Assembly: GCA_934162255.1 (NCBI GenBank)
Contig: CAKPIG010000005.1
Location: 18,480 to 82,479, forward strand
From: an uncultured Clostridia bacterium
Lineage (GTDB): Bacteria; Bacillota; Clostridia; TANB77; CAG-508
DNA: 64,000 nucleotides
Direction: 5' to 3'
Position numbers and translations under genes: made by a program. The notes beneath the pieces are model-generated. The model saw only the letters and a program-made list of their open reading frames with translations, made no database searches and was not told where the DNA came from. Shown here in pieces: positions 1 through 19,289 of this stretch; positions within the stretch are counted from its first letter, which is position 1; the number at the start of each line of letters is the position of its first letter.

Positions 1-36
1 TATATTTATAATACTTTTTATGAAAGGATGATTTAT

Positions 37-642
37 ATGTTAGCTTATATAAAAGGCTCTTTGGAGATGAAGTTTAAAGATTATATCGTAATTGATGTTT
101 GTGGACTTGGTTACAAAGTTTTTATGGGTGAAAATTCTATAAATTCTATTGGAGATATTGGAGATATTGTTAAAGTTTATACATATTACAGAGTTAGAGA
201 GGATGATATTAGTATTTTTGGTTTTAAGACTCAAGAGGAGTTAAAAACTTTTGAATTACTTTTATCTGTTAGTGGTGTTGGTGCAAAAAGTGCTTTGGTA
301 ATGCTTTCTTGCATTGAGCCATCTGATTTTGCATTAGCAGTAATTTCTAATGATGTGAAATTATTAACTCAAGTTCCTGGTATAGGTAATAAGTCTGCCC
401 AAAGAATTATTTTGGAATTAAAAGATAAGTTAAAATCTGAACAGTTAGAAGATGAAGCAAAATCCAAATTGACAAAAGCTAAGGCTTCTAATAATGAAAA
501 TATTCAAGAAGCAATTTCTGGTTTGATGGTTCTTGGTTTTGCAAAAAAAGATATTGAAAAAGCTTTTGAACATCTTGATGTTGATAATTTATCTTTAGAG
601 GATTTAATAAAGAAAGGATTAATTTTATTAACAAAAAAATAG
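37..642 (+). CDS. ruvA: Holliday junction branch-migration protein RuvA
   Basis: Track ORF 28..642. The N-terminus MLAYIKG and the helix-hairpin-helix motifs (SGVGAKSAL, VPGIGNKSAQRI) are RuvA-typical. I prefer the ATG at 37 (AAAGGA 9 nt upstream) to the track start at 28. Confidence 0.9.
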   Translation: MLAYIKGSLEMKFKDYIVIDVCGLGYKVFMGENSINSIGDIGDIVKVYTYYRVREDDISIFGFKTQEELKTFELLLSVSGVGAKSALVMLSCIEPSDFALAVISNDVKLLTQVPGIGNKSAQRIILELKDKLKSEQLEDEAKSKLTKAKASNNENIQEAISGLMVLGFAKKDIEKAFEHLDVDNLSLEDLIKKGLILLTKK

Positions 643-672
643 AGCTTTGCCTGCAAGGCTGCTCTATTTTTT
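640..672. terminator. Bidirectional intrinsic terminator between convergent ruvA and the membrane ORF
   Basis: Hairpin TAGAGC/GCTCTA with an inner GCCT-GCA-AGGC, preceded by A7 (633..639) and followed by T6 (667..672). It spans both stop codons (640..642 and 664..666). Confidence 0.75.
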
Positions 673-1182
673 CTTTTTATTTTGTCTATCTGGTAAAATT
701 TTTCCCACAAAATGTACTATTTTAGTAGATTCTTTATTTGCAACTTCTTTTCCAAGTGCTTTACCTCCAACTGTTAATGAGGCTACGATTGCACTTATTA
801 CAAATTGAAAATTTGCTCCTGTCTTTTCTGCAATTTTTGCAGCAATCATTGCACTAATCGCTCCACTAAGTACTCCACAAATGTCTCCTATTACATCAGC
901 ACATATATTAGCTACTTTTGCTGAATTTTTTATTAATTTTATTGATGTTTTTGCTCCATTTGCTTTTTTAGTAGCTTTTGCATGAAATTCTTCTTCATTT
1001 GCTACTGTTACAGCAACTCCTATTATATCAAATACAATTCCTACTAATATTACAAATATTAATATTAGTATTGAGAAAAATAAGTTTAAATTTGTTATTC
1101 CATTTGTTGATATGTATGAAAAACATATTGATAGTACAAATGTTAGTATAAATACTTCAATAAACCATTTTGTTTTTTCCAT
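664..1182 (-). CDS. Small four-TM membrane protein, OapA-like candidate (function unverified)
   Basis: 172 aa, with ATG at 1182 and AAAGGAG 14 nt upstream. It has four hydrophobic helices, a Lys-rich loop (KATKKANGAKTSIKLIKNSAK) between TM2 and TM3, and ADVIGD in TM3. It lies directly downstream of the large structured RNA with no terminator in between. Confidence 0.8.
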   Translation of the reverse strand: MEKTKWFIEVFILTFVLSICFSYISTNGITNLNLFFSILILIFVILVGIVFDIIGVAVTVANEEEFHAKATKKANGAKTSIKLIKNSAKVANICADVIGDICGVLSGAISAMIAAKIAEKTGANFQFVISAIVASLTVGGKALGKEVANKESTKIVHFVGKILPDRQNKKKK

Positions 1183-1210
1183 TTTGTCTTGTTGTTCTCC
1201 TTTATTTTTT

Positions 1211-1743
1211 GCTAGATGGTGAAATCTAAGTAAATTTTACGGTTTAGGTCTAGTTGAATTTCTCTATCCTTTACTATACATTACTGCATAGCTGTTTCCA
1301 TTTAAAAGAACATCTATATATTTCATTAGACACTAGATCGCCACTTAAATCCGTACCTTAATCCTTAGATTTCTATGTTCCTCTAGGAACAAACACTCTA
1401 GAAGTTTTCCTTAACATACTATATTTATTGTTAGTCTTTTTTGCAAGTGCAATTTCATAACTGATATAATGCTAATCCCAGTACATTCACTCAAGACAGG
1501 CTACAATATGTATTTTGTGTCTTGGCACTCAACATAGGTTTTACTTAAACAAGGTTGTTTTAAGCCTCCACGAGAAGAGGGAGTTTTGCATATGCCATTA
1601 TACAGTTCCCCAGTCTCTTTACTCCCTGCTCACACACAAAACTGGCATTTCGCGCACAAACAAGAAACTTCATCGGTATGCCCTTTAGTGGATTTTTAGC
1701 CCCACCCTCACAATAACTAGTATGACTAGAATAGTGCACCATC
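1211..1743 (-). ncRNA. Large (about 530 nt) structured non-coding RNA, possibly OLE-class (class unverified)
   Basis: The 590-nt gap has no credible ORF and is visibly richer in G+C than its flanks. The 5' GAUGGUG (1743..1737) pairs with CACCAUC (1221..1215). A perfect 10-bp long-range helix joins 1364..1373 and 1221..1230. Further helices join 1578..1584 with 1621..1627 and form a hairpin at 1717..1729. A consensus-like promoter sits immediately upstream. Confidence 0.65.
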
Positions 1744-1749
1744 TTTTAT

Positions 1750-1778
1750 ATTATACTATTTTTCCTAATATTTTACAA
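1750..1778 (-). promoter_or_regulatory. Sigma-A-type promoter for the structured RNA
   Basis: On the minus strand: TTGTAA (1778..1773), a 17-nt spacer, then TATAAT (1755..1750). This puts G1743 at a typical +1 distance. The -35 overlaps the stop codon of the tmk-like gene. Confidence 0.55.
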
Positions 1779-2444
1779 GTGTTTTTTTATTTCATTATAT
1801 ATTTCTTCATGTATATCATCAATTGTTCTTATTTCTCCATCTTTTATGCAATTTACCTTATACCAATTGTAATCTTTAGCAACTTCTACAGCTGCAGTAT
1901 ATGCGTCTATTAAATGGTTTTTATCACTTTCGTGAATATCTTTTTTATCTTCATGTGTAAATTTGTTTTCTCTTTTTTCCATTAATTCAAGTGTTTTTTC
2001 AACTGGCATGTCCAAAAATATTACTTCTGTTGGAATTGGCAATTTATATAGATTGAATTCAAAATCCCACAACCAATTTAAGAATTTTTTTCTTTCTTCT
2101 TTGTCTGCAATCTTGCCAGCTTGATGTACCATGTTAGAAGTTGTGTATCTATCTGCTATTATTATTCCTCCATTTTCATAGTATTTTTTATATTCTTTTT
2201 GGAATGTTGCATATCTATCTGCTGCATAAAATGTTGATGCTATATATGGACTTATTTCCTTTGCATTTTTGCCAAATTCTCCTGATAGATACATTTTTAC
2301 AAGTGAAGAACTTGGGCTTTCATAATTCGGAAAGCTTACTGTTTTATAGTTAATTTTATTTTCATCAAATCTTTCTTTTAATTTTGCAGATTGTGTTTGT
2401 TTTCCACTTCCGTCTGTTCCGTCTATTACAAATAATTTTCCCAT
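1773..2444 (-). CDS. tmk: Thymidylate kinase family protein
   Basis: 223 aa, with P-loop DGTDGSGKQT, a DRY-type motif (ADRYTTSN) and a GGAGG RBS. Confidence 0.75.
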   Translation of the reverse strand: MGKLFVIDGTDGSGKQTQSAKLKERFDENKINYKTVSFPNYESPSSSLVKMYLSGEFGKNAKEISPYIASTFYAADRYATFQKEYKKYYENGGIIIADRYTTSNMVHQAGKIADKEERKKFLNWLWDFEFNLYKLPIPTEVIFLDMPVEKTLELMEKRENKFTHEDKKDIHESDKNHLIDAYTAAVEVAKDYNWYKVNCIKDGEIRTIDDIHEEIYNEIKKHL

Positions 2445-2503
2445 TTTTTGTACCTCCTTTACAAATTATATATATCTTTTATATTTTTGTAAAGTTTTAT
2501 GTG

Positions 2504-2552
2504 CAAAAAAAGAGAACTAGATTACTGGTTTTAAAAGCAATTAATCTAGTTC
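2504..2552 (-). terminator. Intrinsic terminator downstream of the 150-aa ORF
   Basis: Perfect 11-bp stem GAACTAGATTA / TAATCTAGTTC (2514..2524 and 2542..2552), followed on the minus strand by TCTTTTTTT. Confidence 0.7.
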
Positions 2553-2644
2553 AATAAACGGATTTATAAAACATATAAATATATGATTTATGCTGTTATT
2601 TTAGCAAAAAGATTCATAGAAGTCAATAAATTTCGACATTTTTT

Positions 2645-3097
2645 TTAAAATTTATTTTTCTTAAATAGACCTTTTATTAGGCTAAAAATTTTCTTAAGAA
2701 AACTTGGTTCTTCATACAACATTAAGTCTGTTGTTTCAGTATTATTTTCTTCTTTATTTATCTGTGCTTTTCTCTTTTCAAAAACTTCATTTATGTCATA
2801 TTGTTTCTGTAATTCTTCCTCTACTTTTCTTAGCTCTTCTGCGTCTTTTAGTTGTAGTCTTTCTTTTTCTTCAGGGCTTGCTAAGAAGTCTCTATAAATT
2901 AAACCTAATATTATTGTTGTTTCTTTTTTTAATTTTTGTTCTTCTATAGGTTCTTTTATATCTGCTTTATAGTCAGTAGCTTTATTTTCTGTTATAACAT
3001 TTCTGAATTGCACCGGTATTTTACTTAATAATTCAATTGGCATTAATTTTAATATTTCGTCAACTTCAACAAAAGCTTCCTCATATTCCCTTTTCAA
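2645..3097 (-). CDS. Hypothetical protein (charged, helical, no TM)
   Basis: 150 aa with a TTG start 7 nt after GGAGGA. It lies 17 nt downstream of the preceding ORF, so the two are probably co-transcribed. I recognise no family. Confidence 0.6.
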   Translation of the reverse strand: MKREYEEAFVEVDEILKLMPIELLSKIPVQFRNVITENKATDYKADIKEPIEEQKLKKETTIILGLIYRDFLASPEEKERLQLKDAEELRKVEEELQKQYDINEVFEKRKAQINKEENNTETTDLMLYEEPSFLKKIFSLIKGLFKKNKF

Positions 3098-3114
3098 TTA
3101 ATTTTCCTCCTATG

Positions 3115-3783
3115 TTATTCTCTTTCCATTCTTGCTAGTGGCTCTATTAGTCTCTTTTGTGTTCTTTCTTTTGGGAAGTTTTCCATCGCTTCTTTTCTAT
3201 CTTGTGCTGTATTTTTTTCAAAACATTGTTTACAAAATTCCATTTTGCTTTGAACTGAATTTTTAACCATTTCTTTTTTTTGACCTAGTTCAAAAAATAC
3301 TCCCCTTTGGTATTCTATAACTCTTTGCATAAATAGTTTTGATTCATCATATTTTTGTGTAAACATTTCTATATATCCATTTAATTTTTCTTTACATTTT
3401 TGTGCTTTTATAAAGTCTTTTCCAGCAACTGCTTTTGCCCCAGCGTCTATTGCTCCTTGACATGCTAATAGTATTTTTTCAAATGCTTGATTTCTTGTTT
3501 CTGGATTTTCTACTTTTTCTTTTTCATCTTCTAAATCATGTCCATCATATTTGGCTGAAATTTCTGCCATTAGTGGTTTTGATAATACATCTAATTCATT
3601 TTCTTCAGTTATTTTTTCCATCTCTTGTGATAATGTATTATACCTTTCTTCATCTTCTTTAGATATTTCAGAGAAATTAGGATAATATTTAATTTTTATT
3701 ATTTTCATTACTTCGGCTATTTTCTTTACATTTTCACATGCTTTTTGGTATCTTACTGCATCTTCCGTTTTTTCGTATTCCAT
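3115..3783 (-). CDS. Hypothetical protein
   Basis: The track ORF ends at 3804 (GTG). I prefer the ATG at 3783 (MEYEKTED...), 8 nt after AAAGGAG. I recognise no family. Confidence 0.6.
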   Translation of the reverse strand: MEYEKTEDAVRYQKACENVKKIAEVMKIIKIKYYPNFSEISKEDEERYNTLSQEMEKITEENELDVLSKPLMAEISAKYDGHDLEDEKEKVENPETRNQAFEKILLACQGAIDAGAKAVAGKDFIKAQKCKEKLNGYIEMFTQKYDESKLFMQRVIEYQRGVFFELGQKKEMVKNSVQSKMEFCKQCFEKNTAQDRKEAMENFPKERTQKRLIEPLARMERE

Positions 3784-4043
3784 AAATAATTCTCCTTTGT
3801 TCACTTATACATTTTTATTATAACAAACCAATTTTTTTTTGTAAATATCTTTTTCTACAATTTTTTCAAATCTTTTATGGCTGGCTCATAGATATTTTTT
3901 TCAGAAATATGAACAATTTGGCTTTATGGCATATATTCTTCCTTCTTTGTTTTTATTATTTACAATTTATGAATATTTTTTCATTTTTTATAGAAAAATA
4001 TATTATAAAGTGATATACTACATTTGTTTTAGGAGGGAAAATT

Positions 4044-5441
4044 ATGGAAGAAAATTTAAAAGAAAAACTTTTTAATGAAAAAAAAGTTGGTTGGGAAAAA
4101 TTAAGTGACATTGAAAAAGATCTTATTTTCTCTTTTTCTAATGGGTACATTAATTTTTTAAACAAGTCAAAAATTGAAAGAGAAGCAGTTATTACTGCTA
4201 GAGAACTTGCTGAGTCTCATGGTTTTAAAGATGTTATGTATTTTGAACATTTAAAACCTGGAGATAAAGTTTATTTTGTAAACAGAGATAAGAGCATATA
4301 TTTAGCTGTAATTGGTACAGAAAAATTAGAAAATGGTCTTCAAATTGTTGGAGCTCATATAGATTCTCCACGCTTAGATTTAAAACCAAATCCTTTATGT
4401 GAAGATGGTGGTTTTGCATATTTTAAAACTCATTACTATGGTGGAATAAAAAAATATCAATGGACAACAATTCCTTTGAGTCTACATGGAGTTATTGTTA
4501 AAGCTAATGGAGAGAAAATTAATGTTAATATTGGTGAAGATGAAAACGATCCAATTTTTACAATTACAGATTTACTTCCTCATTTAGCACAAGAACAAAT
4601 GGAATTAAAATTAAAAAATGGTATTGATGGTGAATCTTTAGCCGTATTAATTGGAAGTATTCCTTATGATGATGATAAAATTTCTGAAAAAATCAAATTA
4701 AATATTTTAAATATTTTACATCAAAAATATGAGATTACAGAAGCTGATTTACTAAGTTCAGAAATTGAAGTTGTTCCTGCTTTCAAGGCTCGTTCTTTAG
4801 GTTTTGATTCAAGCATGGTTGCAGCTTATGGTCAAGATGATAAGATATGTGCATATACTTCACTTGCAGCAATGATGGATTTAAAAGATGTTAAAACAAC
4901 TGCTGTTTGCATACTTTCTGATAAAGAAGAAATAGGAAGTATGGGAAATACAGGTATGGAATCACATATGTTTGATTTCTTCATTTCTGAATTGTTAAAC
5001 AAGGCTGGTGAAAATAGACCTAATTTATTAGATAAAGTATTTTGTTTCTCAAGAATGCTTTCTGCAGATGTTGATGCCGGTTTTGACCCATTATATGCAA
5101 ATGTTTCTGATAGAACAAATGCAGCATTCTTAGGACGTGGTATTGGATTAAATAAATATACTGGTGCTCGTGGAAAATCTGGTGCATCTGATGCAAATGC
5201 AGAATTTGTTGCATGGGTTAGAAATATATTTGAGAAAAATAATGTTAAATATCAAGTTTCTGAACTTGGAAAGGTTGATATTGGAGGTGGCGGAACTATT
5301 GCCTATATATTAGCAAATAAAGGTGTTGATGTAATAGACTGTGGTGTTCCTGTTCTTTCAATGCATGCTCCTTATGAAGTTACAAGTAAATACGATATAT
5401 ATACTGCTTACAGAGGATATAAAGCCTTCTGGGAAGCATAA
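4044..5441 (+). CDS. M18-family aminopeptidase (aminopeptidase 1 type)
   Basis: 465 aa with VGAHIDSPRLDLKPNPL and overall M18 aspartyl/aminopeptidase-like architecture. AGGAGG RBS. Confidence 0.8.
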   Translation: MEENLKEKLFNEKKVGWEKLSDIEKDLIFSFSNGYINFLNKSKIEREAVITARELAESHGFKDVMYFEHLKPGDKVYFVNRDKSIYLAVIGTEKLENGLQIVGAHIDSPRLDLKPNPLCEDGGFAYFKTHYYGGIKKYQWTTIPLSLHGVIVKANGEKINVNIGEDENDPIFTITDLLPHLAQEQMELKLKNGIDGESLAVLIGSIPYDDDKISEKIKLNILNILHQKYEITEADLLSSEIEVVPAFKARSLGFDSSMVAAYGQDDKICAYTSLAAMMDLKDVKTTAVCILSDKEEIGSMGNTGMESHMFDFFISELLNKAGENRPNLLDKVFCFSRMLSADVDAGFDPLYANVSDRTNAAFLGRGIGLNKYTGARGKSGASDANAEFVAWVRNIFEKNNVKYQVSELGKVDIGGGGTIAYILANKGVDVIDCGVPVLSMHAPYEVTSKYDIYTAYRGYKAFWEA

Positions 5442-5443
5442 TA

Positions 5444-5465
5444 AAAGACCTCAGAAGAGGTCTTT
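5444..5465. terminator. Bidirectional terminator hairpin
   Basis: AAAGACCTC-agaa-GAGGTCTTT lies between the convergent aminopeptidase and surface-protein genes. It is flanked by A/T runs. Confidence 0.75.
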
Positions 5466-7992
5466 ATTTATTCGTAAATCCTGTTGCTTTACATCCGTTA
5501 AACATTCCTGTTGTTGTAGCTTTAGTTGACCAATTTCCTGCTCTTCTATTTATTGTCGCTAAATTTGAACAGTTTTGAAACATATAATTCATGTTTGTTA
5601 CACTTTTTGTATTCCAACAACTACTATCAAAATCATTATAACAATTTAAACTTGTTAAGCTAGAACATCCACTAAACATTTCTTGCATATTTGTTACTTT
5701 ATTTGTTTTGAATGCTTTTATATTTGTAGGTGTTGTTAGTTTTGAGCATCCTCTAAACATTGCCTGCATCCAAATTGCATTACTTGTATTAAAATTACTC
5801 AAGTTAATTGTTGTAAGTCTTGAACATCCATCAAACATCATTTCAAAATATTGAACATTTGATGTGCTTGAAAATCTTGTAATAAAGTTTAAGCTTGTTA
5901 AACTTGAACAATTTTGGAACATTCCTCTCATTTGTGTTACTGAATTTGTATTTAATGTTGCTGAATCATATGCAATATTATTTAACTTTCCGCATCCTGC
6001 AAAAACATATGTCATATACTTAAGTTTACTGCTTGTTATAGCTGGAATTTGAGCAGTTGTTAATGATGAACAGCCATAGTACATATATCCTATACTTTCA
6101 ACATTTTTTGTATCTATTGATGTTCTTATTGTCGTACTTACATTTGTTAAGTTTGTGCAATTATAAAACCACATTCCCATACTATCCGGTATTATTGTAT
6201 TTATTACTTGTGTACTTTTTACGCTTAAAGCATATCCTAACCATGGTATATTATTTGCTGTTTGTGAATCTGCTGCTGGATGGTATTTCTGCCCTGTTAT
6301 ATTCCATGTTCCTGCTTGTACAGTTTTTCCTGCAATTGTTCCTGGAACATTGTTAAATGCAAGTGTCCCATCTGTATATAATGTTACATATATTGTATTT
6401 GGTGTTGTACATGTAATAACATCTGATGGTTCGCTATTTCCTGCTACATCATATACCATTGCATATATGTTATACGTTGTTGATGGTTTTAAATATAAGA
6501 TTCCATTTTTATTTTTAGAACTTACCCCAGCAATTGAACCATTCATATTAGTATATGTTTCATCATCACTATTATATGAACTTGCAGATACTTCTTTATA
6601 ACGCCATTCTATTCTTTGAATTCCACTTAATTCGTCTCGTGCAGTTATATTAAATGATATATTTGCTTCTGTTTCGGCTGCACTTGCAGATATTTGAGCT
6701 GTTGGCAAATCTTTGTCGATATTATTTACATTATATGTTGCATCACTTCCAACATTTCCACTCTTATCTACTAATCTTGCATATACCAATCCATTTGAAC
6801 TACGTTCCATTGTACTTATATTTTCATAGTTTATTCCATCTAAACTCATTTGTACCATATAACCACTATTTAAAATTTCTTGTTTTACTGTTGCCGTTAC
6901 TGTTACATCTTTATTTGTCCATGTAGATGGTGAACCTGAAAGTGTTATGTTTGTTTTATCTGGCACTTTTAGTGTTCTAGCTGAAACTGCCTCACTTATA
7001 TTTCCTGCAACATCTATTGCAAATATATAATATGTTGTTTCTTGTTTTAGTCTTGTTACAACATCTTTTGCTTCTTTTTGTCCTGTTACTCCTTTATTTA
7101 AAAATTCATTTGCATTTGGCATTGTTTGGCTGTCTTTAAGTATATAACTATAGATTCCACTTCCATCATCTGTTGCCTTAAATTCTATACTATCTGATTT
7201 TGTATTTAGTATTGTTACTATTGGAGCTTTTTCATCTTTCCACACAGCATATAATTCTTTGTTTTCATTTTTAGTATAATATCTACTATCTTTTTCGTTC
7301 TTATATAAAGGTTCTGTATCTGTTGCGTTTTCTGCCCAACCTTTAAATCTATACCCTTCTTTGTACATATAATCATCTATGTTAAATAATAATTCAAGTG
7401 ATTTATTGCTTTTTTTCTTGTATGTTGGTAATGCTTTCCCTGTCTTCAATGTTCCACCATTTGGATTATATGTTATATTGTATTCAAAAACAGTTTGATT
7501 TTCATCATCATTTCCTCCTGGTGTTGTTCCAGAATTTCCACCTGGATTTGTTCCTGTTGTATTATTTGCATCTATTTCGATTTCTACTAAATAACTATTA
7601 TTTGTATTAGAGAATGTAACTTTTACAATTGTATATCTAGCACTTTGAGCTTTTACTACCGTTTCTAATGTTTCTTTGTCACTGTCTGTTGCTTCTTCTA
7701 TTTTGATGTCATTTCCATTTGCATATTTTTGTAGATATACATTAAGAGATTCTTTATTCAATCCTATAGTTATTTCATCATTATATTTTACGCCTTTGTT
7801 CATTTGCATTTCAGTGTATGCTGACTTTATTACTTTGATTTCTTCATCTTTTGTAGTTGTCTCACTTGTTTTTTCTACATTATCAAAAAGCCCTCCATTT
7901 TTCGCTATAGCTATTGCTACTCCAGCTATTATTAGTATTACTATTATTGTCACTACTAATGCAATTAAAGTAATTCCTTTTTCTTTTTTCAT
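5464..7992 (-). CDS. Large surface protein with a pilin-like N-terminal anchor, a Listeria-Bacteroides-type repeat, Ig-like modules and C-terminal DUF285/BspA-like leucine-rich repeats
   Basis: 842 aa. The N-terminus MKKEKG-ITLIALVVTIIVILII resembles a prepilin leader but has Ala, not Glu, at +5. YNITYNPNGG...GYRFKGW is a Flg_new-type repeat. The C-terminus has repeated MF.GCSSLTSL / NTSNV..M..MF units. AGGAGGAAACC RBS. It starts only 23 nt downstream of nagZ. Confidence 0.8.
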   Translation of the reverse strand: MKKEKGITLIALVVTIIVILIIAGVAIAIAKNGGLFDNVEKTSETTTKDEEIKVIKSAYTEMQMNKGVKYNDEITIGLNKESLNVYLQKYANGNDIKIEEATDSDKETLETVVKAQSARYTIVKVTFSNTNNSYLVEIEIDANNTTGTNPGGNSGTTPGGNDDENQTVFEYNITYNPNGGTLKTGKALPTYKKKSNKSLELLFNIDDYMYKEGYRFKGWAENATDTEPLYKNEKDSRYYTKNENKELYAVWKDEKAPIVTILNTKSDSIEFKATDDGSGIYSYILKDSQTMPNANEFLNKGVTGQKEAKDVVTRLKQETTYYIFAIDVAGNISEAVSARTLKVPDKTNITLSGSPSTWTNKDVTVTATVKQEILNSGYMVQMSLDGINYENISTMERSSNGLVYARLVDKSGNVGSDATYNVNNIDKDLPTAQISASAAETEANISFNITARDELSGIQRIEWRYKEVSASSYNSDDETYTNMNGSIAGVSSKNKNGILYLKPSTTYNIYAMVYDVAGNSEPSDVITCTTPNTIYVTLYTDGTLAFNNVPGTIAGKTVQAGTWNITGQKYHPAADSQTANNIPWLGYALSVKSTQVINTIIPDSMGMWFYNCTNLTNVSTTIRTSIDTKNVESIGYMYYGCSSLTTAQIPAITSSKLKYMTYVFAGCGKLNNIAYDSATLNTNSVTQMRGMFQNCSSLTSLNFITRFSSTSNVQYFEMMFDGCSRLTTINLSNFNTSNAIWMQAMFRGCSKLTTPTNIKAFKTNKVTNMQEMFSGCSSLTSLNCYNDFDSSCWNTKSVTNMNYMFQNCSNLATINRRAGNWSTKATTTGMFNGCKATGFTNK

Positions 7993-8015: not shown

Positions 8016-9092
8016 TTATATTGATTCTTTTACTTCTTGTATTTCTCTATTTATTTCTTCTAGGTTGATTCCTTCTATTTCGTCAGTATCTGATATATTA
8101 TATTTTTGTTTCATTTTTATAATTCTCTTTACACTATTGTTTATTCTGTATTCTTTAATTTCACCTTTTTTTACAAGATTTATTATTTTATTAATCACTC
8201 TTTTTTCTTCATCTTTTCCAAATCTAAATACTATAATATCATTTCCTGCTTCAAAGGCTTTTATTACCGCCAGGTCTGCACCATATACAAATTTTATTGA
8301 TCTCATTTTTAAGTCATCAGTTACAATTAACCCATTATATCTATATTTTTTTCTTAAATATTTATATATGAATTTTCTTGATAGTGATGCTGGATATATT
8401 CTAGTTACACCTTTTACCATTAAATGCCCTACTAAAATTGCATCCGCTCCGTTTTTTATTGCTTGCTCAAATGGATACATGTCTTCTTTTTCAAGAAGTT
8501 GCATCTTTTTATTAATTATTGGTAACCAATAGTGTGAGTCTTGTTTTGTTGCACCATGACCAGGAAAATGTTTTATAACAGAAATTATTTTCTCTTTTTG
8601 CATTTCTTGCATTGTCGCTATCCCACATTTTGCAACAATTTCTTTTTCTTTTCCAAAACTTCTATCTCCTATTACTGTCTTATCTTTTGTTCTTTTTATA
8701 TCTAATACTGGTGCAAAATTCAAGTTAAAACCTGACTTTCTTAAAATTCTAGCTGTGATATTTGCTGATTTTCTTACGAGTTTTTCTCCTCCACTATTCG
8801 CTATTGAATTTGCTGCTGGCAAGTTTAATAATTCTTTTGGCATTCTATTTACTCTTCCACCTTCTTGGTCAATTGCAATAAATAGTGGTACTTTATTATT
8901 TTTGTTTAGGTCTTTTAATTCTTTTATTAGTTTTAACATATCTGCATATGTACTAAAGTTTTTTCTATATAATATTATACCACCAATTTTATATTGCTGA
9001 ATCATTGTTTTGATTCTTTCTGTTATATAGTTTGTATCCATTCCTATTATTATCATTTGGCAAACTTTTTCTTCAATCGTTAGTTCTTTCAT
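8016..9092 (-). CDS. nagZ: Beta-N-acetylhexosaminidase, glycoside hydrolase family 3
   Basis: KHFPGHGAT and VTDDLKM motifs. I prefer the ATG at 9092 (MKELTIEEK) after AAAGGGG to the track start at 9122. Confidence 0.8.
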   Translation of the reverse strand: MKELTIEEKVCQMIIIGMDTNYITERIKTMIQQYKIGGIILYRKNFSTYADMLKLIKELKDLNKNNKVPLFIAIDQEGGRVNRMPKELLNLPAANSIANSGGEKLVRKSANITARILRKSGFNLNFAPVLDIKRTKDKTVIGDRSFGKEKEIVAKCGIATMQEMQKEKIISVIKHFPGHGATKQDSHYWLPIINKKMQLLEKEDMYPFEQAIKNGADAILVGHLMVKGVTRIYPASLSRKFIYKYLRKKYRYNGLIVTDDLKMRSIKFVYGADLAVIKAFEAGNDIIVFRFGKDEEKRVINKIINLVKKGEIKEYRINNSVKRIIKMKQKYNISDTDEIEGINLEEINREIQEVKESI

Positions 9093-9240
9093 TTTTTCCC
9101 CTTTTTTATCTTTTAGTTCCATAATATCATATTTTTATTTTGTTTGCATCTATTTTTAAATATTTATTATAAAACAGTTCGTTTTATTTTATAATTCCTT
9201 TTAGTTTTTATAGAAAGGATTTAAAAACGGAAACAGGTTT

Positions 9241-9314: not shown

Positions 9315-9391
<77 letters not shown>

Positions 9392-9454
9392 ATTTATCAA
9401 CAACAATTATGATATCACATTTATATGATAAAGTCAACCTTTTTTTTATATTTT

Positions 9455-10312
9455 TTAGTTGTTCTTGATTTTTTCCTTTTCTTCCACATCACTTTCAAGC
9501 AATTCTGGCTTTTTTAAATACTTTGTTAATTGTTTGAATGATGTAGCATAATAGTAACCATCACAGATTCTTTCATCTCCTACGAATGCTATTGTTATAC
9601 ATTTTTCCTCTCTTATCTCATCATCCTCATATATGAAACTTTTTTTCTTTTTTCCCATTGAAAAGAACATACTAGTTGTTCCAAAATTGTATATATGATG
9701 GTATATACTATCTATTCCAAGAGACCCTACATTTGTTAAAAATACACTTGTGTGGAATGGACTTAAGTTTATTATAAATTTAGGCATTAGTCCATATTTA
9801 TCTAATAATTTTAATAATCTTACAGTCCACAATATTAATGTATTTGGAACTAAATTAAAGAATTTTATTGCCTTATCTGTATTGTTTACTGTTGCTGTGT
9901 CTTTATTTTTTTCTATTGTTTTTTCTAGTTTATCTTTTATTTCAAAAATATTTTCTGTTCCATCATATCCTATTTTTGTAACAGTCTCTTGACCTTCATC
10001 ACTTAATGATTTTTTTATTGCAAGTGACACATATATTTTGTTTCTCTCATATAATGTACCATTCATTACAAACCAATTTAAATGAGGTCTCTCATGTATT
10101 ATTCTTACTATGGCGGCATAAATTATATTCATATATGATATTTTTATTCCTTCTGCCGCTTTTTTATCTATGTATTCATCCATTTTTTTGATTGGTATAT
10201 CTTGTTTAAAATATACCTGTGAATCATTTCTTTGCATCATTATAAATGGTATTACTCTAAATATTGGTGCTACATTTTTTACCTTTTTTCCATCTGATCT
10301 ATGTCCAAACAT
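9455..10312 (-). CDS. Stand-alone protein resembling the 2-oxoacid dehydrogenase acyltransferase (E2) catalytic domain
   Basis: 285 aa. The C-terminal ITIAFVGDERICDGYYYATSF aligns with the E2/CAT DHRxxDG motif but has Glu in place of the catalytic His. Confidence 0.55.
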   Translation of the reverse strand: MFGHRSDGKKVKNVAPIFRVIPFIMMQRNDSQVYFKQDIPIKKMDEYIDKKAAEGIKISYMNIIYAAIVRIIHERPHLNWFVMNGTLYERNKIYVSLAIKKSLSDEGQETVTKIGYDGTENIFEIKDKLEKTIEKNKDTATVNNTDKAIKFFNLVPNTLILWTVRLLKLLDKYGLMPKFIINLSPFHTSVFLTNVGSLGIDSIYHHIYNFGTTSMFFSMGKKKKSFIYEDDEIREEKCITIAFVGDERICDGYYYATSFKQLTKYLKKPELLESDVEEKEKIKNN

Positions 10313-10381
10313 TATTTTCTCCTCTTTTTTCTTTTAATCGTGAAAAGACCTCTCGCTATTTCGAAAGGCCTTTCTCTTTTA

Positions 10382-11323
10382 TTATAATCCTAATAATTTT
10401 ACTTCAACATTATACATTTTATATTTCTTAGAAGCCTCATCTATCTTAAATTCTATTAGTGTGTTTTCTAGTGTATCACTATTTTGTCTTAAATCTGTAG
10501 TAAAGTATAATTTTATTTGTGGTATTTCAAGTTTATTCTTAACTATTTCTTTGAATGTTTCTGCTGTATGTTTGTCATCTTCACATACAAAAATCAATTG
10601 TGGCATTGTTCCAAAACCAGAATCTCCTGGTTCAAAGTTTTCATAAAATTCTTTATATAGTGTCATTTTATCTACTAACTTTTTCTTCCAATCTGTTTCT
10701 CTTCTTATTACTTCAAACAAGAATGTTATTGATTTACCATTTTTAGCAAGTTTTATTGATCCTCCTGTTGCTTTAAATGTCTTTCCTGATACTTTTGTAT
10801 TTATGGCTGGTTTTACTACATATCCATCTACTGCTTTTACTTTTCTTAAATATGCTATTATTGTTTGATTTCCTGCTAATCTCTTTTTTATCATTGGAAC
10901 TGGCTTTACATTATCTGTTTGTTGCCATTTGCATTCAATTTCTTTTGATGTTAACAAGTATTTTCCCATCTTTTCCAAGCAATAAATTCTATATATTCCC
11001 TTTCCTTCTTCTGAAGTGAAATAATATCTTGTTAATATTTTTGATTTCACTAATTGTTCTAGTTTATTATTTAATTTATCTTGTGATTTTGGATCTATTC
11101 CCTTATATTCTAGCATTTGATATAATTGTCTTGATGTTATAAATTCAAATTCATTTACTAGTTCTAATATTGCAAAATGAATATCTGTAATATGACCTAT
11201 ATTGATTTTATGTATTATTTGATTCATTGATACATATCCGTCTTTTCCGTCAAATGTTTTTATTTCACCCTCTCTTATTGCAAATGGTGATACTGTTGCT
11301 TTGATTTGGTTATCTTCAACCAT
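10382..11323 (-). CDS. Hypothetical winged-helix protein, possibly replication-relaxation family
   Basis: 313 aa. The N-terminal segment ILELVNEFEFITSRQLYQML...KLEQLVKSKILTRY...IYCLEKMGKYLL resembles the wHTH of Replic_Relax proteins. This is a by-eye call only. Confidence 0.35.
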   Translation of the reverse strand: MVEDNQIKATVSPFAIREGEIKTFDGKDGYVSMNQIIHKINIGHITDIHFAILELVNEFEFITSRQLYQMLEYKGIDPKSQDKLNNKLEQLVKSKILTRYYFTSEEGKGIYRIYCLEKMGKYLLTSKEIECKWQQTDNVKPVPMIKKRLAGNQTIIAYLRKVKAVDGYVVKPAINTKVSGKTFKATGGSIKLAKNGKSITFLFEVIRRETDWKKKLVDKMTLYKEFYENFEPGDSGFGTMPQLIFVCEDDKHTAETFKEIVKNKLEIPQIKLYFTTDLRQNSDTLENTLIEFKIDEASKKYKMYNVEVKLLGL

Positions 11324-11346
11324 TTCAATCCCTCCTTATAATTTAC

Positions 11347-11802
11347 TTAAACTATAACTAATTTTACTTTTTTCTTCTCTGGTATTATTTTTTTTATGCA
11401 AACATCTACAGTTTCTCCATATTGTAGTTTTTCTGAATATTCTGTCATTCCTACTAAATTAGGTGTTAGTTCTATAAATACTCCATTTTTATTTTTTTCT
11501 TTGTCTCTTACAATTCCTTTAACTGTCATTCCCTCTTTAAAGTTTTGAGCATTTTCTTCCCAACTACCTAAACAGTCCTTATATGACAAATTTATTTTTC
11601 CTGTTTTTTCATCTATAGATTTTACCATACATTTTACTTTTTGTCCAATATTTACCCTTTCGTCTGGTGATTTTATTCGAACTACTGATAAATCTTCTAT
11701 AAACGCAAGACCTACTGGTCCATCTTTAATTTCAATAAATGCACCATATGGTCTTATTCCTTTGACTATGCCTTCTACAATTTGACCTTGCTTAACATCC
11801 AT
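11347..11802 (-). CDS. S1 RNA-binding domain protein
   Basis: 151 aa. GQIVEGIVKGIRPYGAFIEI...KVKCMVKSID is a canonical S1 fold signature, and a second OB-like half follows. Confidence 0.75.
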   Translation of the reverse strand: MDVKQGQIVEGIVKGIRPYGAFIEIKDGPVGLAFIEDLSVVRIKSPDERVNIGQKVKCMVKSIDEKTGKINLSYKDCLGSWEENAQNFKEGMTVKGIVRDKEKNKNGVFIELTPNLVGMTEYSEKLQYGETVDVCIKKIIPEKKKVKLVIV

Positions 11803-11879
11803 TTGTATTTTTCTCCTTTTTTTCTTTAGTTTATTATATTATATATTTTTTATTTTTCTTTTTCAATATTTTCCAGTAA

Positions 11880-12596
11880 TTATTTTAATATCTCTGCAAC
11901 TTCTTTTTTGGTTAAGTATCTCCATTTTCCTAATTCGACATTTTTCACTTCTATTTTTCCTATTTTGCTTCTGTGTAGTGCTATTACTTTTTTGCCAATT
12001 GCTTCACACATTTTTCTTACTTGTCTATTTTTTCCTTCATGTATTGTTATTTCCAATCTTGAAATGTTTTTTTCTTCATCTGTTTTTAAGATTTTTACTC
12101 TTGCTGGTTTTGTTATATAGTCTTCAATTTTTACACCATCTCTTAGTTTCTGAACCTCAGTTTTTTCAACAATTCCTTTTATTGTTACTGTATATGTTTT
12201 TTCTATTTCATGTTTTGGATGTGTTACTTTATACACAAAGTCTCCATCATTAGTAAGAATTAATGCTCCTGATGTATACATGTCTAACCTTCCTACAGGA
12301 ACTATTCTTTGTTTTACTTTTACTAAATCTAATACTGTGTCTCTTTTAAATTGATCATCTACTGTTGTAACATATCCTATTGGTTTATTTAGCAATATAT
12401 ATACTTTTTCATTTGATGGTTTTACAATTTTTCCATTATATTTTACAATGTCTACTTCTGGTACAATTTTTGTTCCCACTTCTGTTACTGTTTTTTCATT
12501 TACTTTTATCTTTCCTTCTGCAATTAATTCTTCACATTTTCGTCTTGAAGCAACTCCACAATTTGCCAAATATTTTTGTAGTCTTATTTCTTCCAT
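11880..12596 (-). CDS. rluB: Pseudouridine synthase, RsuA/RluB family
   Basis: S4 domain (RLQKYLANCGVASRR) plus the catalytic GRLDMYTSGALILTNDG. Confidence 0.85.
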   Translation of the reverse strand: MEEIRLQKYLANCGVASRRKCEELIAEGKIKVNEKTVTEVGTKIVPEVDIVKYNGKIVKPSNEKVYILLNKPIGYVTTVDDQFKRDTVLDLVKVKQRIVPVGRLDMYTSGALILTNDGDFVYKVTHPKHEIEKTYTVTIKGIVEKTEVQKLRDGVKIEDYITKPARVKILKTDEEKNISRLEITIHEGKNRQVRKMCEAIGKKVIALHRSKIGKIEVKNVELGKWRYLTKKEVAEILK

Positions 12597-12717
12597 AAAT
12601 TTTCCCTTCTTTTTGTGTTATATTAATTAATGTTTTGCATATTATATATTAATTCCTTTTATTTTTTAAAAGGCTTTATATAGATTCTCCGGCAGGGTTC
12701 TCTTGCCGGATTTTTTC

Positions 12718-13620: not shown

Positions 13621-13630
13621 TTTTCTCCTT

Positions 13631-15157: not shown

Positions 15158-15220
15158 TTTGGCCTCCAATATTAATTTTTAATATTGAGTATTATATCAA
15201 AGATTTTTTTAAAGGTCAAA

Positions 15221-15255
15221 ATTTTTAAAAGAGCACTTCTTTTGAAATGCTCTTT
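15221..15255 (-). terminator. Terminator downstream of the SSB-like gene
   Basis: Stem AAGAGCA / TGCTCTT (15229..15235 and 15248..15254), followed on the minus strand by TTTTAAAAATTTT. Confidence 0.6.
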
Positions 15256-15270
15256 CTACTTTTATTTATA

Positions 15271-15972
15271 TTATACAGCTTCACTTTCTGTTGTTTCTTC
15301 TTTTTTGTCTGTTCCTTCTTCATTTAATAGTTCTAGACTGCATATTGAAACTTCATATGCAACTTTCATTTCAGATGTTCCATCTTCATATTTCTTTTCA
15401 TATTGTCTTGATTGAACTCTTCCTATTATTTTTACTTGAGCTCCAACTTCTAAGTTTTGGCAAAATCTTGCATTTCTTCCCCATGCTATTGTTGGAATAT
15501 AGTCTGATTTATTGTACGCTCTGTTTACTGCTAATAATAAATCTGCTATTTCTCTTCCAAATGGTGTTTGTCTGTAAATTGGTTTTTTACAAACAAATCC
15601 AATAAGTACAACTTCATTTGTTGTTTCATCTTTTTTTGCAATTTCGCTTTCTTCTTGCTCTTCTGATTCTTTAACTTCTTCAACATCTTTAGCGAATACT
15701 GTTAGAATTAACTTGTTTCTTTCATTTTCATAACTATTGTAAGATCTGAATTGACCTTTTATTAATAGTTTTTTACCTTCTTCTAACATTTCATCAGTTA
15801 TTATTCTTTCTGATATAGTTATTGGTATTATGTCTGCGTTTCCACTTAAACGTGGTATTGATAAATTAAAAATGTAAAATTTTTCTCCATAAATTTCATG
15901 GCTAAATTTTTTTTCGCCTGTAACTTTTCCTACTAATGTTAAGTAGTTGTTTTCTAAATAATTTGTATCCAA
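15271..15972 (-). CDS. Single-stranded DNA-binding protein-like, with two tandem OB folds
   Basis: 233 aa with a TTG start after GGAGGA. Both halves match the SSB pattern: LTLVGKV...LLIKGQFRSY and VVLIGFV...IAWGRNA...VKIIGRVQSRQYE. An acidic linker joins them. The acidic tail lacks a terminal PF. Confidence 0.7.
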   Translation of the reverse strand: MDTNYLENNYLTLVGKVTGEKKFSHEIYGEKFYIFNLSIPRLSGNADIIPITISERIITDEMLEEGKKLLIKGQFRSYNSYENERNKLILTVFAKDVEEVKESEEQEESEIAKKDETTNEVVLIGFVCKKPIYRQTPFGREIADLLLAVNRAYNKSDYIPTIAWGRNARFCQNLEVGAQVKIIGRVQSRQYEKKYEDGTSEMKVAYEVSICSLELLNEEGTDKKEETTESEAV

Positions 15973-16131
15973 TTTTATTTCCTCCCTATCTTTTTTTATT
16001 TATCAATTGTAAATTACCTTCTTGCTTTTCTCTTTTTAAAATTTTCTACATTTCTTATTATACAACATTTTTTTGGTTTTGTCTACATAAAAAGTTATTT
16101 TTTTCTAATTTTTCCTCATTTTATTGCCTTT

Positions 16132-16623: not shown

Positions 16624-16772
16624 GGCATCTCCTTACATAAATATATTGTAAGTGTTTCCTATTTGTTGTTATTTATGCAAGTCTTTTTATATAAATTTGT
16701 ACATATATTCTATTAGGTATAATGGTATATTTAATATTTTGCCGTCTTGATTTAAATTATTTAACTAGTTTT

Positions 16773-18105: not shown

Positions 18106-18124
18106 TATACCCCTCCGTCTAATC

Positions 18125-18892: not shown

Positions 18893-19052
18893 TTTGAACT
18901 CCTTTCAATTTTTACCATTATACTTTTTTCTTTGCCTCTAGTAAATACTTTTCTGAATTTTCATTTAATAATTCAGCTCTATTTGGATAGACTATGTTTG
19001 CGAATTTTATTGCTATACTTCATTTAAGAATATTTTCAATGGGGTGATATAT

Positions 19053-19289
19053 ATGTATTTATCTGATGCAGTAAGAAATAGAATTAGATTTTATCAAGAC
19101 AAAAAGCAAATGAGTCTTTGGGCTTTGTTCAAGGCTTCTGGTGTTCCAATGTCAACACTTGCAGCTTTTATGAGTCAAAGAACTGAATTAATAAAGTTAG
19201 ATACTTTACTTCATATTTGCGAAGGTTTTGGTATAACTTTAACAGAATTTTTTGAAGACGAAGTTTTTAAAGAAGTAGAACAAGATTAA
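19053..19289 (+). CDS. XRE-family helix-turn-helix transcriptional regulator
   Basis: 78 aa. MSLWALFKASGVPMSTLAAFMSQRT...LHICEGFGITLTEFF is a typical HTH_3/Cro-C1 fold pattern. ATG at 19053 after GGGGTGA. Confidence 0.8.
   Translation: MYLSDAVRNRIRFYQDKKQMSLWALFKASGVPMSTLAAFMSQRTELIKLDTLLHICEGFGITLTEFFEDEVFKEVEQD

What the first reader, a model, noticed from the sequence alone, without database searches (positions are those of the whole stretch)
664..1778. A structured RNA of about 530 nt co-transcribed with a four-TM protein (OLE/OapA-like or a new ornate RNA)
Seen in the sequence:
- The 590 nt between the tmk-like stop (1773) and the start of the 172-aa membrane ORF (1182) have no credible ORF. 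The only candidate is a 60-aa ORF with no RBS.
- The region is clearly richer in G+C than its surroundings: about 40% in stretches I counted by hand, against under 30% nearby.
- On the minus strand, TTGTAA-17-TATAAT (1778..1750) places the transcription start at G1743.
- The first 7 nt, GAUGGUG (1743..1737), are perfectly complementary to CACCAUC at the far end (1221..1215).
- Abutting that helix, CUUAGAUUUC (1230..1221) pairs perfectly over 10 bp with GAAAUCUAAG (1373..1364).
- Further perfect helices are CUAGU-cau-ACUAG (1729..1717) and AGGGAGU/ACUCCCU (1627..1621 with 1584..1578).
- No terminator separates the RNA 3' end from the RBS of the membrane ORF.

Established knowledge: OLE RNAs are ornate RNAs of about 600 nt from anaerobic or extremophilic Firmicutes. 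They lie immediately upstream of, and are co-transcribed with, oapA, which encodes a four-TM protein of about 21 kDa that tethers the RNA to the membrane.

The ORF here has four predicted TM helices, a Lys-rich loop and a DxxxD (ADVIGD) in TM3.

Inference: this is either an OLE-class RNA in an atypical neighbourhood (tmk and ruvA rather than isoprenoid or recN genes) or an undescribed ornate RNA with a membrane-protein partner. I cannot confirm the class by eye.
Basis: partly seen in the sequence, partly recalled or inferred. Interest (0 to 1): 0.8.

Follow-up and report, generated by a model that had tools for sequence, protein, structure and literature searches.

The report
Known OLE RNA with its oapA gene
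The 590-base gap holds a gene for OLE RNA, a well-described large structured bacterial RNA, followed by the gene for its membrane-protein partner OapA; this is a correct rediscovery of something known, not a new RNA class.

Summary
Rfam's OLE model (RF01071) matches window 1200..1758 (-) end to end at 326 bits (threshold 50, E 4e-92). No other RNA family matches at E<=1.

The 172-aa ORF at 664..1182 (-) is OapA:
- It is 38% identical (E 3e-31) to a published OapA sequence.
- Its DxxxD motif is invariant across 41 diverse homologues.
- It has four long helices and a CorB/CNNM-like predicted fold.
- Its homologue lies just downstream of an OLE gene in 78 of 78 testable loci from other genomes.

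It does not support the other two, which clash with conserved P2/P3 and P5/P6 pairings.

The proposed promoter is conserved: a -10 box sits 6-7 nt upstream of P1 in 74 of 75 loci. A hairpin terminator follows oapA.

This copy is a shortened form. P9 lacks the palindromic GGCC loop that forms one dimer bridge, and P13 lacks a closed GNRA loop (the OapB site). That matches the published "variant 1" of uncultured gut Clostridia.

Novelty: already known. Interest is low.

The parts
1750..1778 (-). Sigma-70-type promoter of the ole-oapA unit: -35 TTGTAA (1778..1773, overlapping the tmk stop codon) and -10 TATAAT (1755..1750).
   Evidence: The consensus scan matches 10 of 12 positions. A -10 box at the same distance from P1 is found in 74 of 75 homologous loci, and a -35 matching at least 4 of 6 in 61 of 75.
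1200..1758 (-). OLE RNA gene as delimited by Rfam RF01071. The predicted RNA proper, from P1 5' strand to P1 3' strand, is 1743..1215 (529 nt).
   Evidence: 326.3 bits against a gathering score of 50, E 3.6e-92, model positions 1-616 of 616, not truncated. It is the only family with E<=1. 121 of 131 consensus pairs are canonical. Across 75 sequences 89.4% of cells are paired against 77% in shuffles and 40-45% with slid partners, and 105 of 142 pairs show double changes.
1215..1220 (-). P1 3' strand. It pairs with 1743..1738 (P1 5' strand) and closes the whole RNA.
   Evidence: This helix is not in the Rfam consensus structure. Covariation supports it: 99.1% paired, with for example AU:53 GC:10 UA:9 at one pair (helix 1).
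1711..1733 (-). 5' strands of P2 (1733..1726, pairing with 1401..1394), P3 (1724..1718 with 1421..1415) and P3.1 (1716..1711 with 1430..1425). P3/P3.1 is the stem that the literature proposes spans the membrane.
   Evidence: P3 is 84% paired and P3.1 93% paired, each with several pair types. P2 is nearly invariant with one covarying pair. Stem numbering is inferred from the text of PMC12265935.
1687..1706 (-). P4 hairpin with the invariant A-rich loop CUAAAAAU. This loop is a dimer contact in the cryo-EM structures.
   Evidence: Rfam alignment. The loop columns are invariant in 75 sequences. Its role is taken from PMC12265935.
1572..1667 (-). P5/P5.1 (1667..1622, loop containing UGCCA at 1647..1643) and P6/P6.1 (1617..1572, loop containing UGGCA at 1597..1593). 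The two loops are complementary and form kissing contacts between monomers in published structures.
   Evidence: (helices 4-7, 88-99% paired). Their role is taken from PMC12265935.
1434..1564 (-). P7 (1564..1544), P8 (1537..1506) and a shortened P9 (1497..1434, 64 nt). The P9.3 arm and its palindromic GGCC loop are absent.
   Evidence: P9 is 64 nt here against a median of 98 nt. A GGCC- or AGCU-type palindrome is present in 59 of 75 relatives and absent here. The L9.3 palindrome corresponds to dimer bridge B3 (PMC12286853).
1221..1373 (-). 3' domain closed by the 10-bp helix 1373..1364 / 1230..1221. It contains P12.2 (1337..1332 / 1254..1249), P13 (1330..1313, loop UGAAAUAU) and P14/P14.1 (1312..1265, GUAA tetraloop).
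   Evidence: helices 19-24, 92-100% paired; 9 of 10 pairs of the closing helix show double changes.
1197..1202 (-). Shine-Dalgarno-like AAGGAG, 14 nt upstream of the oapA ATG.
   Evidence: Read from the sequence. The spacing is on the long side.
664..1182 (-). oapA: a 172-aa, 18.4-kDa membrane protein with DVIGD at residues 96-100.
   Evidence: 38% identity, E 3e-31, to the OapA sequence in Supplementary Table 4 of PMC12286853. hhalign gives probability 100%, E 2e-39. The DxxxD motif is invariant. AlphaFold pLDDT is 92.8. The top Foldseek hits are MtCorB 7M1T/7M1U and CorC 7CFF/7CFG. An OLE gene lies upstream of the homologue in 78 of 78 testable loci.
633..666 (-). Intrinsic terminator hairpin, UAGAGC...GCUCUA followed by U7, ending the ole-oapA unit. 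It is shared head-to-head with the convergent ruvA gene.
   Evidence: -17.1 kcal/mol, z -3.8. The scan also lists it on the + strand.

Best explanation
This is an ole-oapA locus of a low-G+C, probably spore-forming gut member of the Clostridia.

Shown here:
- A conserved sigma-70-type promoter lies 6-7 nt upstream of P1, which places the transcription start at about G1743.
- An OLE-class RNA of about 529 nt (1743..1215) follows. It has the family's conserved sequence blocks and covarying helices.
- No terminator lies before oapA. The OapA homologue is at 664..1182, followed by a hairpin terminator.

Inferred from published work on other species:
- ole and oapA are co-transcribed, and the RNA is probably released or stabilised as a discrete species.
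- OapA, as a dimer in the membrane, binds the RNA near P4a and holds it at the membrane.
- Two RNAs dimerise through the P4 A-rich loops and the P5.1/P6.1 kissing loops, all of which are present here.
- The complex helps the cell cope with stress. In Halalkalibacterium halodurans these stresses are cold, short-chain alcohols, excess Mg2+ and poor carbon sources.

This copy is a reduced form. It lacks the P9.3 arm whose palindromic loop makes the third dimer bridge, and it lacks a closed GNRA tetraloop on P13, the primary OapB site. This fits the published 'variant 1' of uncultured gut Clostridia, which mostly lack OapB and OapC.
For: RNA identity:
- Rfam OLE matches at 326.3 bits, full-length, and is the only hit at E<=1.
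- 121 of 131 consensus pairs are canonical.
- In 75 homologues 89.4% of cells are paired and 105 pairs show double changes. No shuffle of 500 and no slid control reaches those values.
- P1, P2 and P3, which the Rfam model leaves unpaired, also covary.

Protein identity:
- BLASTP E 3e-31 and hhalign probability 100% against a published OapA.
- The DxxxD motif is invariant.
- The predicted fold resembles CorB/CNNM, as reported for H. halodurans OapA (PMC11332333).

Linkage:
- An OLE gene lies directly upstream, on the same strand, of the homologue in 78 of 80 loci by nhmmer. The other two loci are cut by contig ends.
- All 17 diverse loci tested with Rfam confirm this.

Transcription unit:
- The promoter is conserved.
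- No internal terminator is present.
- A terminator follows oapA.

Variant status:
- P9 is 64 nt against a median of 98, with no GGCC loop, and the P13 loop is UGAAAUAU.
- The score falls in the 310-390 bit band that PMC11332333 calls variant 1, although that study used a different model.

Host:
- The nearest relatives are uncultured Clostridia MAGs.
- A Coat_F spore-coat gene lies in the window.
Against: - Nothing contradicts the identification.
- Function, membrane localisation, dimerisation, processing and the transcription start are not measured here. They are carried over from other species.
- The Shine-Dalgarno-to-ATG spacing of 14 nt is long.
- Pfam and NCBIfam give no hit for the protein, which fits there being no OapA model in either library (not checked directly).
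- The fourth helix of the protein is only moderately hydrophobic.
- Assignment of the host to the GTDB order TANB77 was not verified.
Confidence: 0.97

Rival explanations
1. It is an undescribed class of ornate RNA that only resembles OLE in size and in having a membrane-protein neighbour.
For: None after testing.
Against: The full-length Rfam OLE match scores 326 bits, 6.5 times the curated threshold. The RNA shares invariant sequence blocks and covarying helices with OLE RNAs that score 440-558 bits in Oscillospiraceae, Anaeromonas and Ca. Petromonas.
Confidence: 0.01
2. The region encodes a small protein (the 60-aa ORF 1560..1742), and the RNA structure is incidental.
For: The ORF exists and starts at the ATG inside GAUGGUG.
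Against: There is no RBS and no Pfam hit. At the homologous start the ORF length in 75 relatives ranges from 0 to 71 aa (median 24), and 7 relatives have no start codon there. Substitutions follow base-pairing rather than codon structure. Gene callers left the gap empty in four independent metagenome contigs.
Confidence: 0.01
3. It is a decaying, non-functional remnant of OLE in a reduced genome. The shortened P9 and altered P13 would then be signs of erosion.
For: It is shorter than full-length OLE. It lacks one dimer bridge and the OapB site, and it scores lower than full-length relatives.
Against: 92% of consensus pairs are intact. The remaining conserved loops are unchanged. The same shortened form recurs in at least 15 other species-level loci, with compensatory changes. 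The promoter and an intact oapA are retained. The identical OapA occurs in 63 blocks of the metagenome collection with the same gene order.
Confidence: 0.02
4. The RNA is merely a long cis-acting leader, such as a riboswitch or attenuator, that controls oapA translation. It would not be a stable trans-acting RNP component.
For: It lies directly upstream of oapA with no terminator between them.
Against: It belongs to a family shown experimentally to be an abundant, stable, membrane-bound RNP RNA (PMC12265935). In L063 a 494-aa gene on the opposite strand separates OLE from oapA, yet both are kept. No expression-platform-like element lies at the 3' end.
Confidence: 0.02

Closest known systems
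OLE (ornate, large, extremophilic) RNA, Rfam RF01071. The closest subtype is the 'variant 1' form described by Fernando & Breaker 2024 (PMC11332333).
   Same: - Full-length covariance-model match.
- The same conserved blocks: the P4 loop CUAAAAAU, the P5.1 and P6.1 complementary loops, and GGAAAAC.
- The same helices with covariation.
- oapA immediately downstream, in a host from the Bacillota.
- Like variant 1, it has a short P7, a short P9, and no GNRA-capped P13.
   Different: - Compared with full-length OLE (about 600 nt; H. halodurans, C. acetobutylicum), it is 529-559 nt.
- It lacks P9.3/L9.3 (dimer bridge B3) and the primary OapB site.
- It sits behind its own promoter next to tmk, not inside the long isoprenoid/recN-type operon.
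- P8 is of normal length here (32 nt, the median), whereas the paper describes variant 1 as also having a shorter P8.
OapA (OLE-associated protein A)
   Same: - 38% identity to a published OapA.
- DxxxD motif in the third long helix.
- Four long helices and a basic loop between helices 2 and 3.
- CorB/CNNM-like predicted fold.
- Only one proline, and that one is in the C-terminal tail.
- Position directly 3' of ole.
   Different: It is slightly shorter: 172 aa against 194 aa for the published sequence. It also lacks the Lys-rich N-terminal extension seen in many homologues.
CNNM/CorB/MpfA Mg2+ transporters (Pfam PF01595 transmembrane domain)
   Same: The predicted fold of the membrane domain is similar. 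The top Foldseek hits are 7M1T, 7M1U, 7CFF and 7CFG, with TM-scores of 0.50-0.58.
   Different: There is no Pfam PF01595 hit. The CBS-pair and CorC domains are absent. It carries the DxxxD motif that CNNM domains lack, has four long helices rather than three, and always lies next to an OLE gene.

Membership tests
OLE RNA (RF01071) | Covariance-model score above the curated gathering threshold over the whole model | tested here: met
   326.3 bits against 50, model positions 1-616 of 616, not truncated. It is the only family with E<=1 in 1100..1850.
OLE RNA (RF01071) | Conserved multi-helix secondary structure supported by covariation | tested here: met
   121 of 131 consensus pairs are canonical in the window. 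In 75 sequences 89.4% of cells are paired against 77% in shuffles and 40-45% with slid partners, and 105 of 142 pairs show double changes. Caveat: the alignment is MAFFT, not structure-aware, and the sequences are related to one another.
OLE RNA (RF01071) | Many invariant nucleotides in loops and junctions (about 25% are >97% conserved in the literature) | tested here: met
   100 invariant and 92 nearly invariant columns out of 535 window positions in the 75-sequence alignment, including CUAAAAAUC, GGCAU and GGAAAAC.
OLE RNA (RF01071) | oapA immediately downstream on the same strand | tested here: met
   The ORF 664..1182 starts 32 nt after P1. It is homologous to a published OapA. The pairing holds in 78 of 78 testable related loci.
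OLE RNA (RF01071) | Host in the Bacillota, typically anaerobic or extremophilic | tested here: met
   The nearest loci are uncultured Clostridia or Clostridium sp. gut MAGs. A Coat_F spore-coat gene lies in the window. The window's own taxonomy is not given, so this rests on its nearest relatives.
OLE RNA (RF01071) | Stable abundant RNA, membrane-localised RNP, RNA dimer | not testable with these tools
   This needs RNA-seq or a Northern blot, fractionation, and biophysics.
Full-length OLE subtype | Long P9 ending in the palindromic L9.3 loop (GGCC, GAUC or AGCU), and P13 closed by a GNRA tetraloop (the OapB site) | tested here: not met
   P9 is 64 nt against a median of 98 and contains no such palindrome. 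The P13 loop is UGAAAUAU on a 4-bp stem, whereas full-length relatives show G-GCAA/GUGA/GCGA-C.
OLE 'variant 1' (PMC11332333) | Shorter P7, P8 and P9; OapB site at P13 often missing; found in uncultured gut Clostridia (TANB77) | tested here: inconclusive
   P7 (21 nt) and P9 (64 nt) are short and the P13 GNRA loop is missing. P8 has the usual 32 nt. The score of 326 bits lies in the authors' 310-390 band, but they used a different model. TANB77 membership of the host could not be verified.
OapA | Sequence homology to an experimentally studied or named OapA | tested here: met
   BLASTP gives 38% identity over 172 aa, E 3e-31. hhalign gives probability 100%, E 2.3e-39. The comparison sequence is the OapA in Supplementary Table 4 of PMC12286853 (the text was machine-read).
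OapA | DxxxD motif | tested here: met
   D96-V-I-G-D100. D96, G99 and D100 are invariant in 41 homologues sharing 37-77% identity with the window protein.
OapA | Four transmembrane helices with a basic cytoplasmic cluster, about 20 kDa | tested here: met
   The AlphaFold model (pLDDT 92.8) has long helices at 2-29, 34-60, 87-121 and 126-150. Loop 61-86 has 6 Lys, and the protein is 18.4 kDa. Helix 4 is only moderately hydrophobic by Kyte-Doolittle.
OapA | CNNM-like fold without the conserved CNNM proline | tested here: met
   The top Foldseek hits are 7M1T, 7M1U, 7CFF and 7CFG. The protein has a single proline, in the C-terminal tail.
OapA | Binds OLE RNA (2:1) and brings it to the membrane | not testable with these tools
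   This needs binding assays or imaging.
   No match at E<=1 in 1100..1850, and none at gathering score anywhere in the window.
CNNM/CorB/MpfA Mg2+ transporters | PF01595 domain plus cytosolic CBS-pair and CorC domains | tested here: not met
   There is no Pfam hit at E<=0.01. The protein is only 172 aa with no cytosolic domains. The similarity is at the level of fold only.

The most novel reading that the evidence does not exclude
The sub-lineage containing this window (with L001-L007, L013, L016, L034, L044, L055 and others) carries a naturally minimised OLE. It has lost the whole P9.3 arch and its self-complementary loop (dimer bridge B3). It has also lost the GNRA cap of P13 (the OapB site), while keeping P1-P6, P12 and P14.

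If such RNAs still dimerise and function with OapA alone, they would mark the P9 arch and OapB as dispensable. They would also offer a smaller natural construct for structural work on the unresolved 3' domain. The evidence does not exclude that this goes beyond what was published as 'variant 1'.
Probability: 0.15. Interest if true: 0.35.

Novelty: already known. Interest (0 to 1): 0.15.

Why it matters
OLE RNA is one of the largest bacterial non-coding RNAs whose biochemical function is still unknown, so each confirmed example is of some use for comparative work. This one adds nothing categorically new:
- Standard Rfam annotation finds it.
- Its reduced form in uncultured gut Clostridia has been described.

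Three results are of modest value:
- The termini pair (P1), and P2/P3 covary, in a set of 75 gut-derived OLE RNAs.
- A dedicated promoter placed exactly at P1 is conserved across that set.
- A clade is delimited in which the P9.3 dimer bridge is absent.

For the scan itself, the case shows that the first-stage reader can recognise OLE/OapA from raw sequence.

Tried and rejected
- Pfam and NCBIfam scans of the 172-aa protein found nothing, which fits those libraries holding no OapA model (not checked directly). I used homologue searches and a published sequence instead.
- PDB sequence searches, with the single protein and with a profile, gave only chance hits. Only the fold search was informative.
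- The count of structure pairs for helix H4 failed twice because I pasted a structure string of the wrong length. I counted the pairs with my own script instead.
- I tried to confirm that the host clade is GTDB TANB77 through a paper search and the supplement of PMC11332333. Neither gave a mapping from the MAG names, so this is left unverified.
- I looked for OapB- or OapC-like genes in the window. No KOW or L7Ae domain appears in the 10 small ORFs scanned, and tblastn with published OapC and bS21 sequences gave only chance hits. This says nothing about the rest of the genome.
- I considered and rejected three readings: a coding role for the 60-aa ORF, a decayed remnant, and a mere cis-leader.
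Full report
**What is there**

Window 1183..1772 is a 590-nt gap. On one side is a thymidylate-kinase gene (1773..2444, minus strand; PF02223). On the other is a 172-aa ORF (664..1182, minus strand). ruvA (28..642, plus strand; TIGR00084) converges on that ORF.

The gap is 35% G+C in a window that averages 27%. Only 0.8% of equal-sized windows are as G+C-rich.

**Identification of the RNA**

A scan of the whole window with all 4227 Rfam models at curated thresholds returned two hits. One is a tRNA at 9318..9391. The other is OLE (RF01071) at 1200..1758 on the minus strand: 326.3 bits against a threshold of 50, E 3.6e-92, covering model positions 1-616 without truncation.

A permissive scan of 1100..1850 at E<=1 found nothing else. 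This disposes of ROOL, GOLLD, HEARO, raiA, RNase P, tmRNA and SRP.

Mapping the Rfam consensus structure onto the window gives 131 pairs, of which 121 are canonical.

**Identification of the protein**

Pfam and NCBIfam have no match for the ORF. The family is nevertheless large: 7361 close homologues were found, and 1079 cluster representatives.

- In an alignment of 41 members sharing 37-77% identity with the window protein, D96, G99 and D100 are invariant. This is the DxxxD motif that Fernando & Breaker (PMC11332333) call a distinctive feature of OapA.
- Supplementary Table 4 of Kretsch et al. (PMC12286853) prints an OapA sequence. The window protein is 38% identical to it over its whole length (E 3e-31). 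The family profile matches it with probability 100% (E 2e-39).
- The AlphaFold model is confident (pLDDT 92.8) and has four long helices.
- Its best PDB matches are the archaeal CNNM protein MtCorB (7M1T, 7M1U) and the CorC transmembrane domain (7CFF, 7CFG). PMC11332333 reports the same result for H. halodurans OapA.

**Linkage**

A scan of one genome per species for relatives of the protein returned 80 loci.

- The nearest are uncultured gut Clostridia, such as Clostridium sp. 26_21, CAG:793 and CAG:780, and MAGs from Hadza and rabbit ('Lapin') metagenomes.
- The farthest are Oscillospiraceae, Anaeromonas frigoriresistens and Ca. Petromonas.

nhmmer with the window's RNA found an OLE-like sequence upstream on the same strand in 78 of the 80. 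The two misses have fewer than 220 nt of upstream sequence before the contig ends. Rfam confirmed OLE at 218-558 bits in all 17 diverse loci tested.

The flanking genes vary. tmk lies upstream in 8 loci, ruvA is nearby in 5, and only L006 shares the window's full arrangement. So the 'atypical neighbourhood' is simply a variable neighbourhood around a constant ole-oapA pair.

The identical OapA protein occurs in 63 blocks of the metagenome collection. The four contigs examined show the same tmk / gap / oapA / ruvA order.

I aligned 75 OLE sequences and counted pairs.

- **H1** (1743..1738 with 1220..1215) is not in the Rfam structure. It is paired in 99.1% of cells and shows double changes at 4 of 6 pairs, for example AU:53 GC:10 UA:9. 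This is the terminal helix P1.
- **H2** (1373..1364 with 1230..1221) is exactly an Rfam helix. It is 98.4% paired, with double changes at 9 of 10 pairs.
- **H3** (CUAGU-cau-ACUAG) is paired in only 64% of cells and has no compensatory change.
  - Its 5' arm belongs to the nearly invariant P2 (1733..1726 with 1401..1394).
  - Its 3' arm belongs to P3 (1724..1718 with 1421..1415).
  - P3 and P3.1 (1716..1711 with 1430..1425) covary clearly.
- **H4** (1627..1621 with 1584..1578) competes with the closing stem of P5 and with P6, both well supported. Only 27 of 75 sequences can form it.

The thermodynamic fold of the window sequence alone recovers P1, P2, P3, P4, P5, P6 and the 10-bp helix (z = -2.7).

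**Transcription unit**

The promoter-like site TTGTAA-17-TATAAT (1778..1750) would not be significant on its own in this AT-rich DNA. However, a -10 box, nearly always TATAAT and often preceded by TG, lies 6-7 nt before the first P1 base in 74 of 75 loci. A -35 hexamer accompanies it in 61 of them.

This is good comparative evidence that these OLE genes have their own promoter and that transcription starts at P1.

No terminator-like site lies between OLE and oapA. After the oapA stop codon there is a strong hairpin followed by seven U residues (633..666; -17.1 kcal/mol, z -3.8). The convergent ruvA gene shares it.

Co-transcription and later processing are inferred, not shown.

**The small ORF**

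The 60-aa ORF inside the RNA is not conserved. At the homologous start the open frame runs 0-71 aa (median 24), and 7 sequences lack a start codon there.

**Which kind of OLE**

Helix numbers here are my mapping from the text of the reviews, because the figures are not available. The cryo-EM papers describe three kinds of dimer contact (PMC12265935, PMC12286853):
- the A-rich P4 loops;
- kissing between the P5.1 and P6.1 loops;
- a self-complementary loop at the tip of P9 (L9.3: GGCC, covarying to GAUC or AGCU).

The window keeps the P4 loop (CUAAAAAU) and the complementary UGCCA and UGGCA loops. Its P9, however, is 64 nt against a median of 98 and has no such palindrome. 59 of the 75 relatives have one, including AGCU variants. 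The 16 without it include the window's closest relatives.

P13 ends in an 8-nt loop (UGAAAUAU) on a 4-bp stem. In full-length relatives it ends in the G-GNRA-C cap that is the primary OapB site (PMC7936274). P14.1 keeps a GUAA tetraloop.

This pattern, together with the score of 326 bits, fits 'variant 1' of PMC11332333. That paper describes variant 1 as having short P7-P9, often lacking the OapB site, being common in uncultured gut TANB77 Clostridia that lack OapB and OapC, and scoring 310-390 bits with the authors' own model. Two reservations apply:
- P8 has normal length here.
- I could not verify the GTDB placement of the host.

No OapB-, OapC- or bS21-like gene was found in the parts of the window I searched. 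That says nothing about the rest of the genome.

**How it most likely works**

By homology with the studied systems, the RNA is made from its own promoter together with oapA. OapA dimers in the membrane bind it. Two RNAs pair through the retained P4 and P5.1/P6.1 contacts. The particle contributes to stress tolerance.

In this lineage the particle probably does without the P9 arch and OapB. Only the sequence-level statements are shown here.

**Verdict**

The object is already known, and a routine Rfam scan detects it. Interest is low. The most that can be said for novelty is that this is a clean example of a minimised OLE.

Noticed in passing
L063:2106-4001: In this one related locus, OLE (1563..2106) and oapA (3977..4495) are separated by a 494-aa ORF on the opposite strand (2241..3725). 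In the other loci the oapA match starts at most about 700 nt after the end of OLE.
   Followed up: partly
L008:3277-3724 and L009:3561-4001: About 440 nt of unexplained sequence lies between the 3' end of OLE and the start of oapA. In the window the gap is about 30 nt.
   Followed up: no
L012:3130-3855; L031:897-1526; L036:3292-3884: Large lineage-specific insertions occur inside OLE helices. P9 is 208 nt in L012 and 154 nt in L031, against a median of 98. P13 carries an insertion making it 80 nt in L036, against a median of 18.
   Followed up: no
L064:3503-3983; also L020, L037, L041, L063: Even shorter OLE forms exist. L064 (uncultured Bacilli) is 481 nt with no P8 and a 13-nt P7. Several Clostridia MAGs have a P7 of 4-6 nt and a P8 of 0-18 nt. 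These resemble the published 'variant 2' and score 218-258 bits.
   Followed up: partly
window 1773-1778: The -35 hexamer of the OLE promoter (TTGTAA) overlaps the tmk stop codon, so the tmk coding sequence runs into the ole promoter.
   Followed up: no
window 633-666: One hairpin serves as a bidirectional terminator for the convergent oapA and ruvA genes. The oapA stop codon UAG lies inside the stem.
   Followed up: partly
window 9318-19289: Next to the only tRNA gene (9318..9391, -) lies a run of genes with a mobile-element flavour. They include a Replic_Relax protein (10382..11323), an SSB-domain protein (15271..15972) and a Cro/C1-type HTH protein (19044..19289). This may be an integrated element.
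   Followed up: no
window 5464-7992: An 842-aa protein carries DUF285 and a Listeria-Bacteroides repeat, so it is probably a surface protein. Beside it lie a GH3 glycosidase (8016..9122) and an M18 aminopeptidase (4044..5441).
   Followed up: no
window 41049-41303 and 43976-44395: A spore-coat Coat_F gene and an Hsp20 gene. The Coat_F gene suggests a spore-former, which agrees with the published correlation between OLE and sporulation genes.
   Followed up: no
window 2645-3804: Two ORFs upstream of tmk (150 aa and 229 aa, both on the minus strand) have no significant Pfam or NCBIfam hit. Both are conserved next to tmk-OLE in L006 and L007.
   Followed up: no
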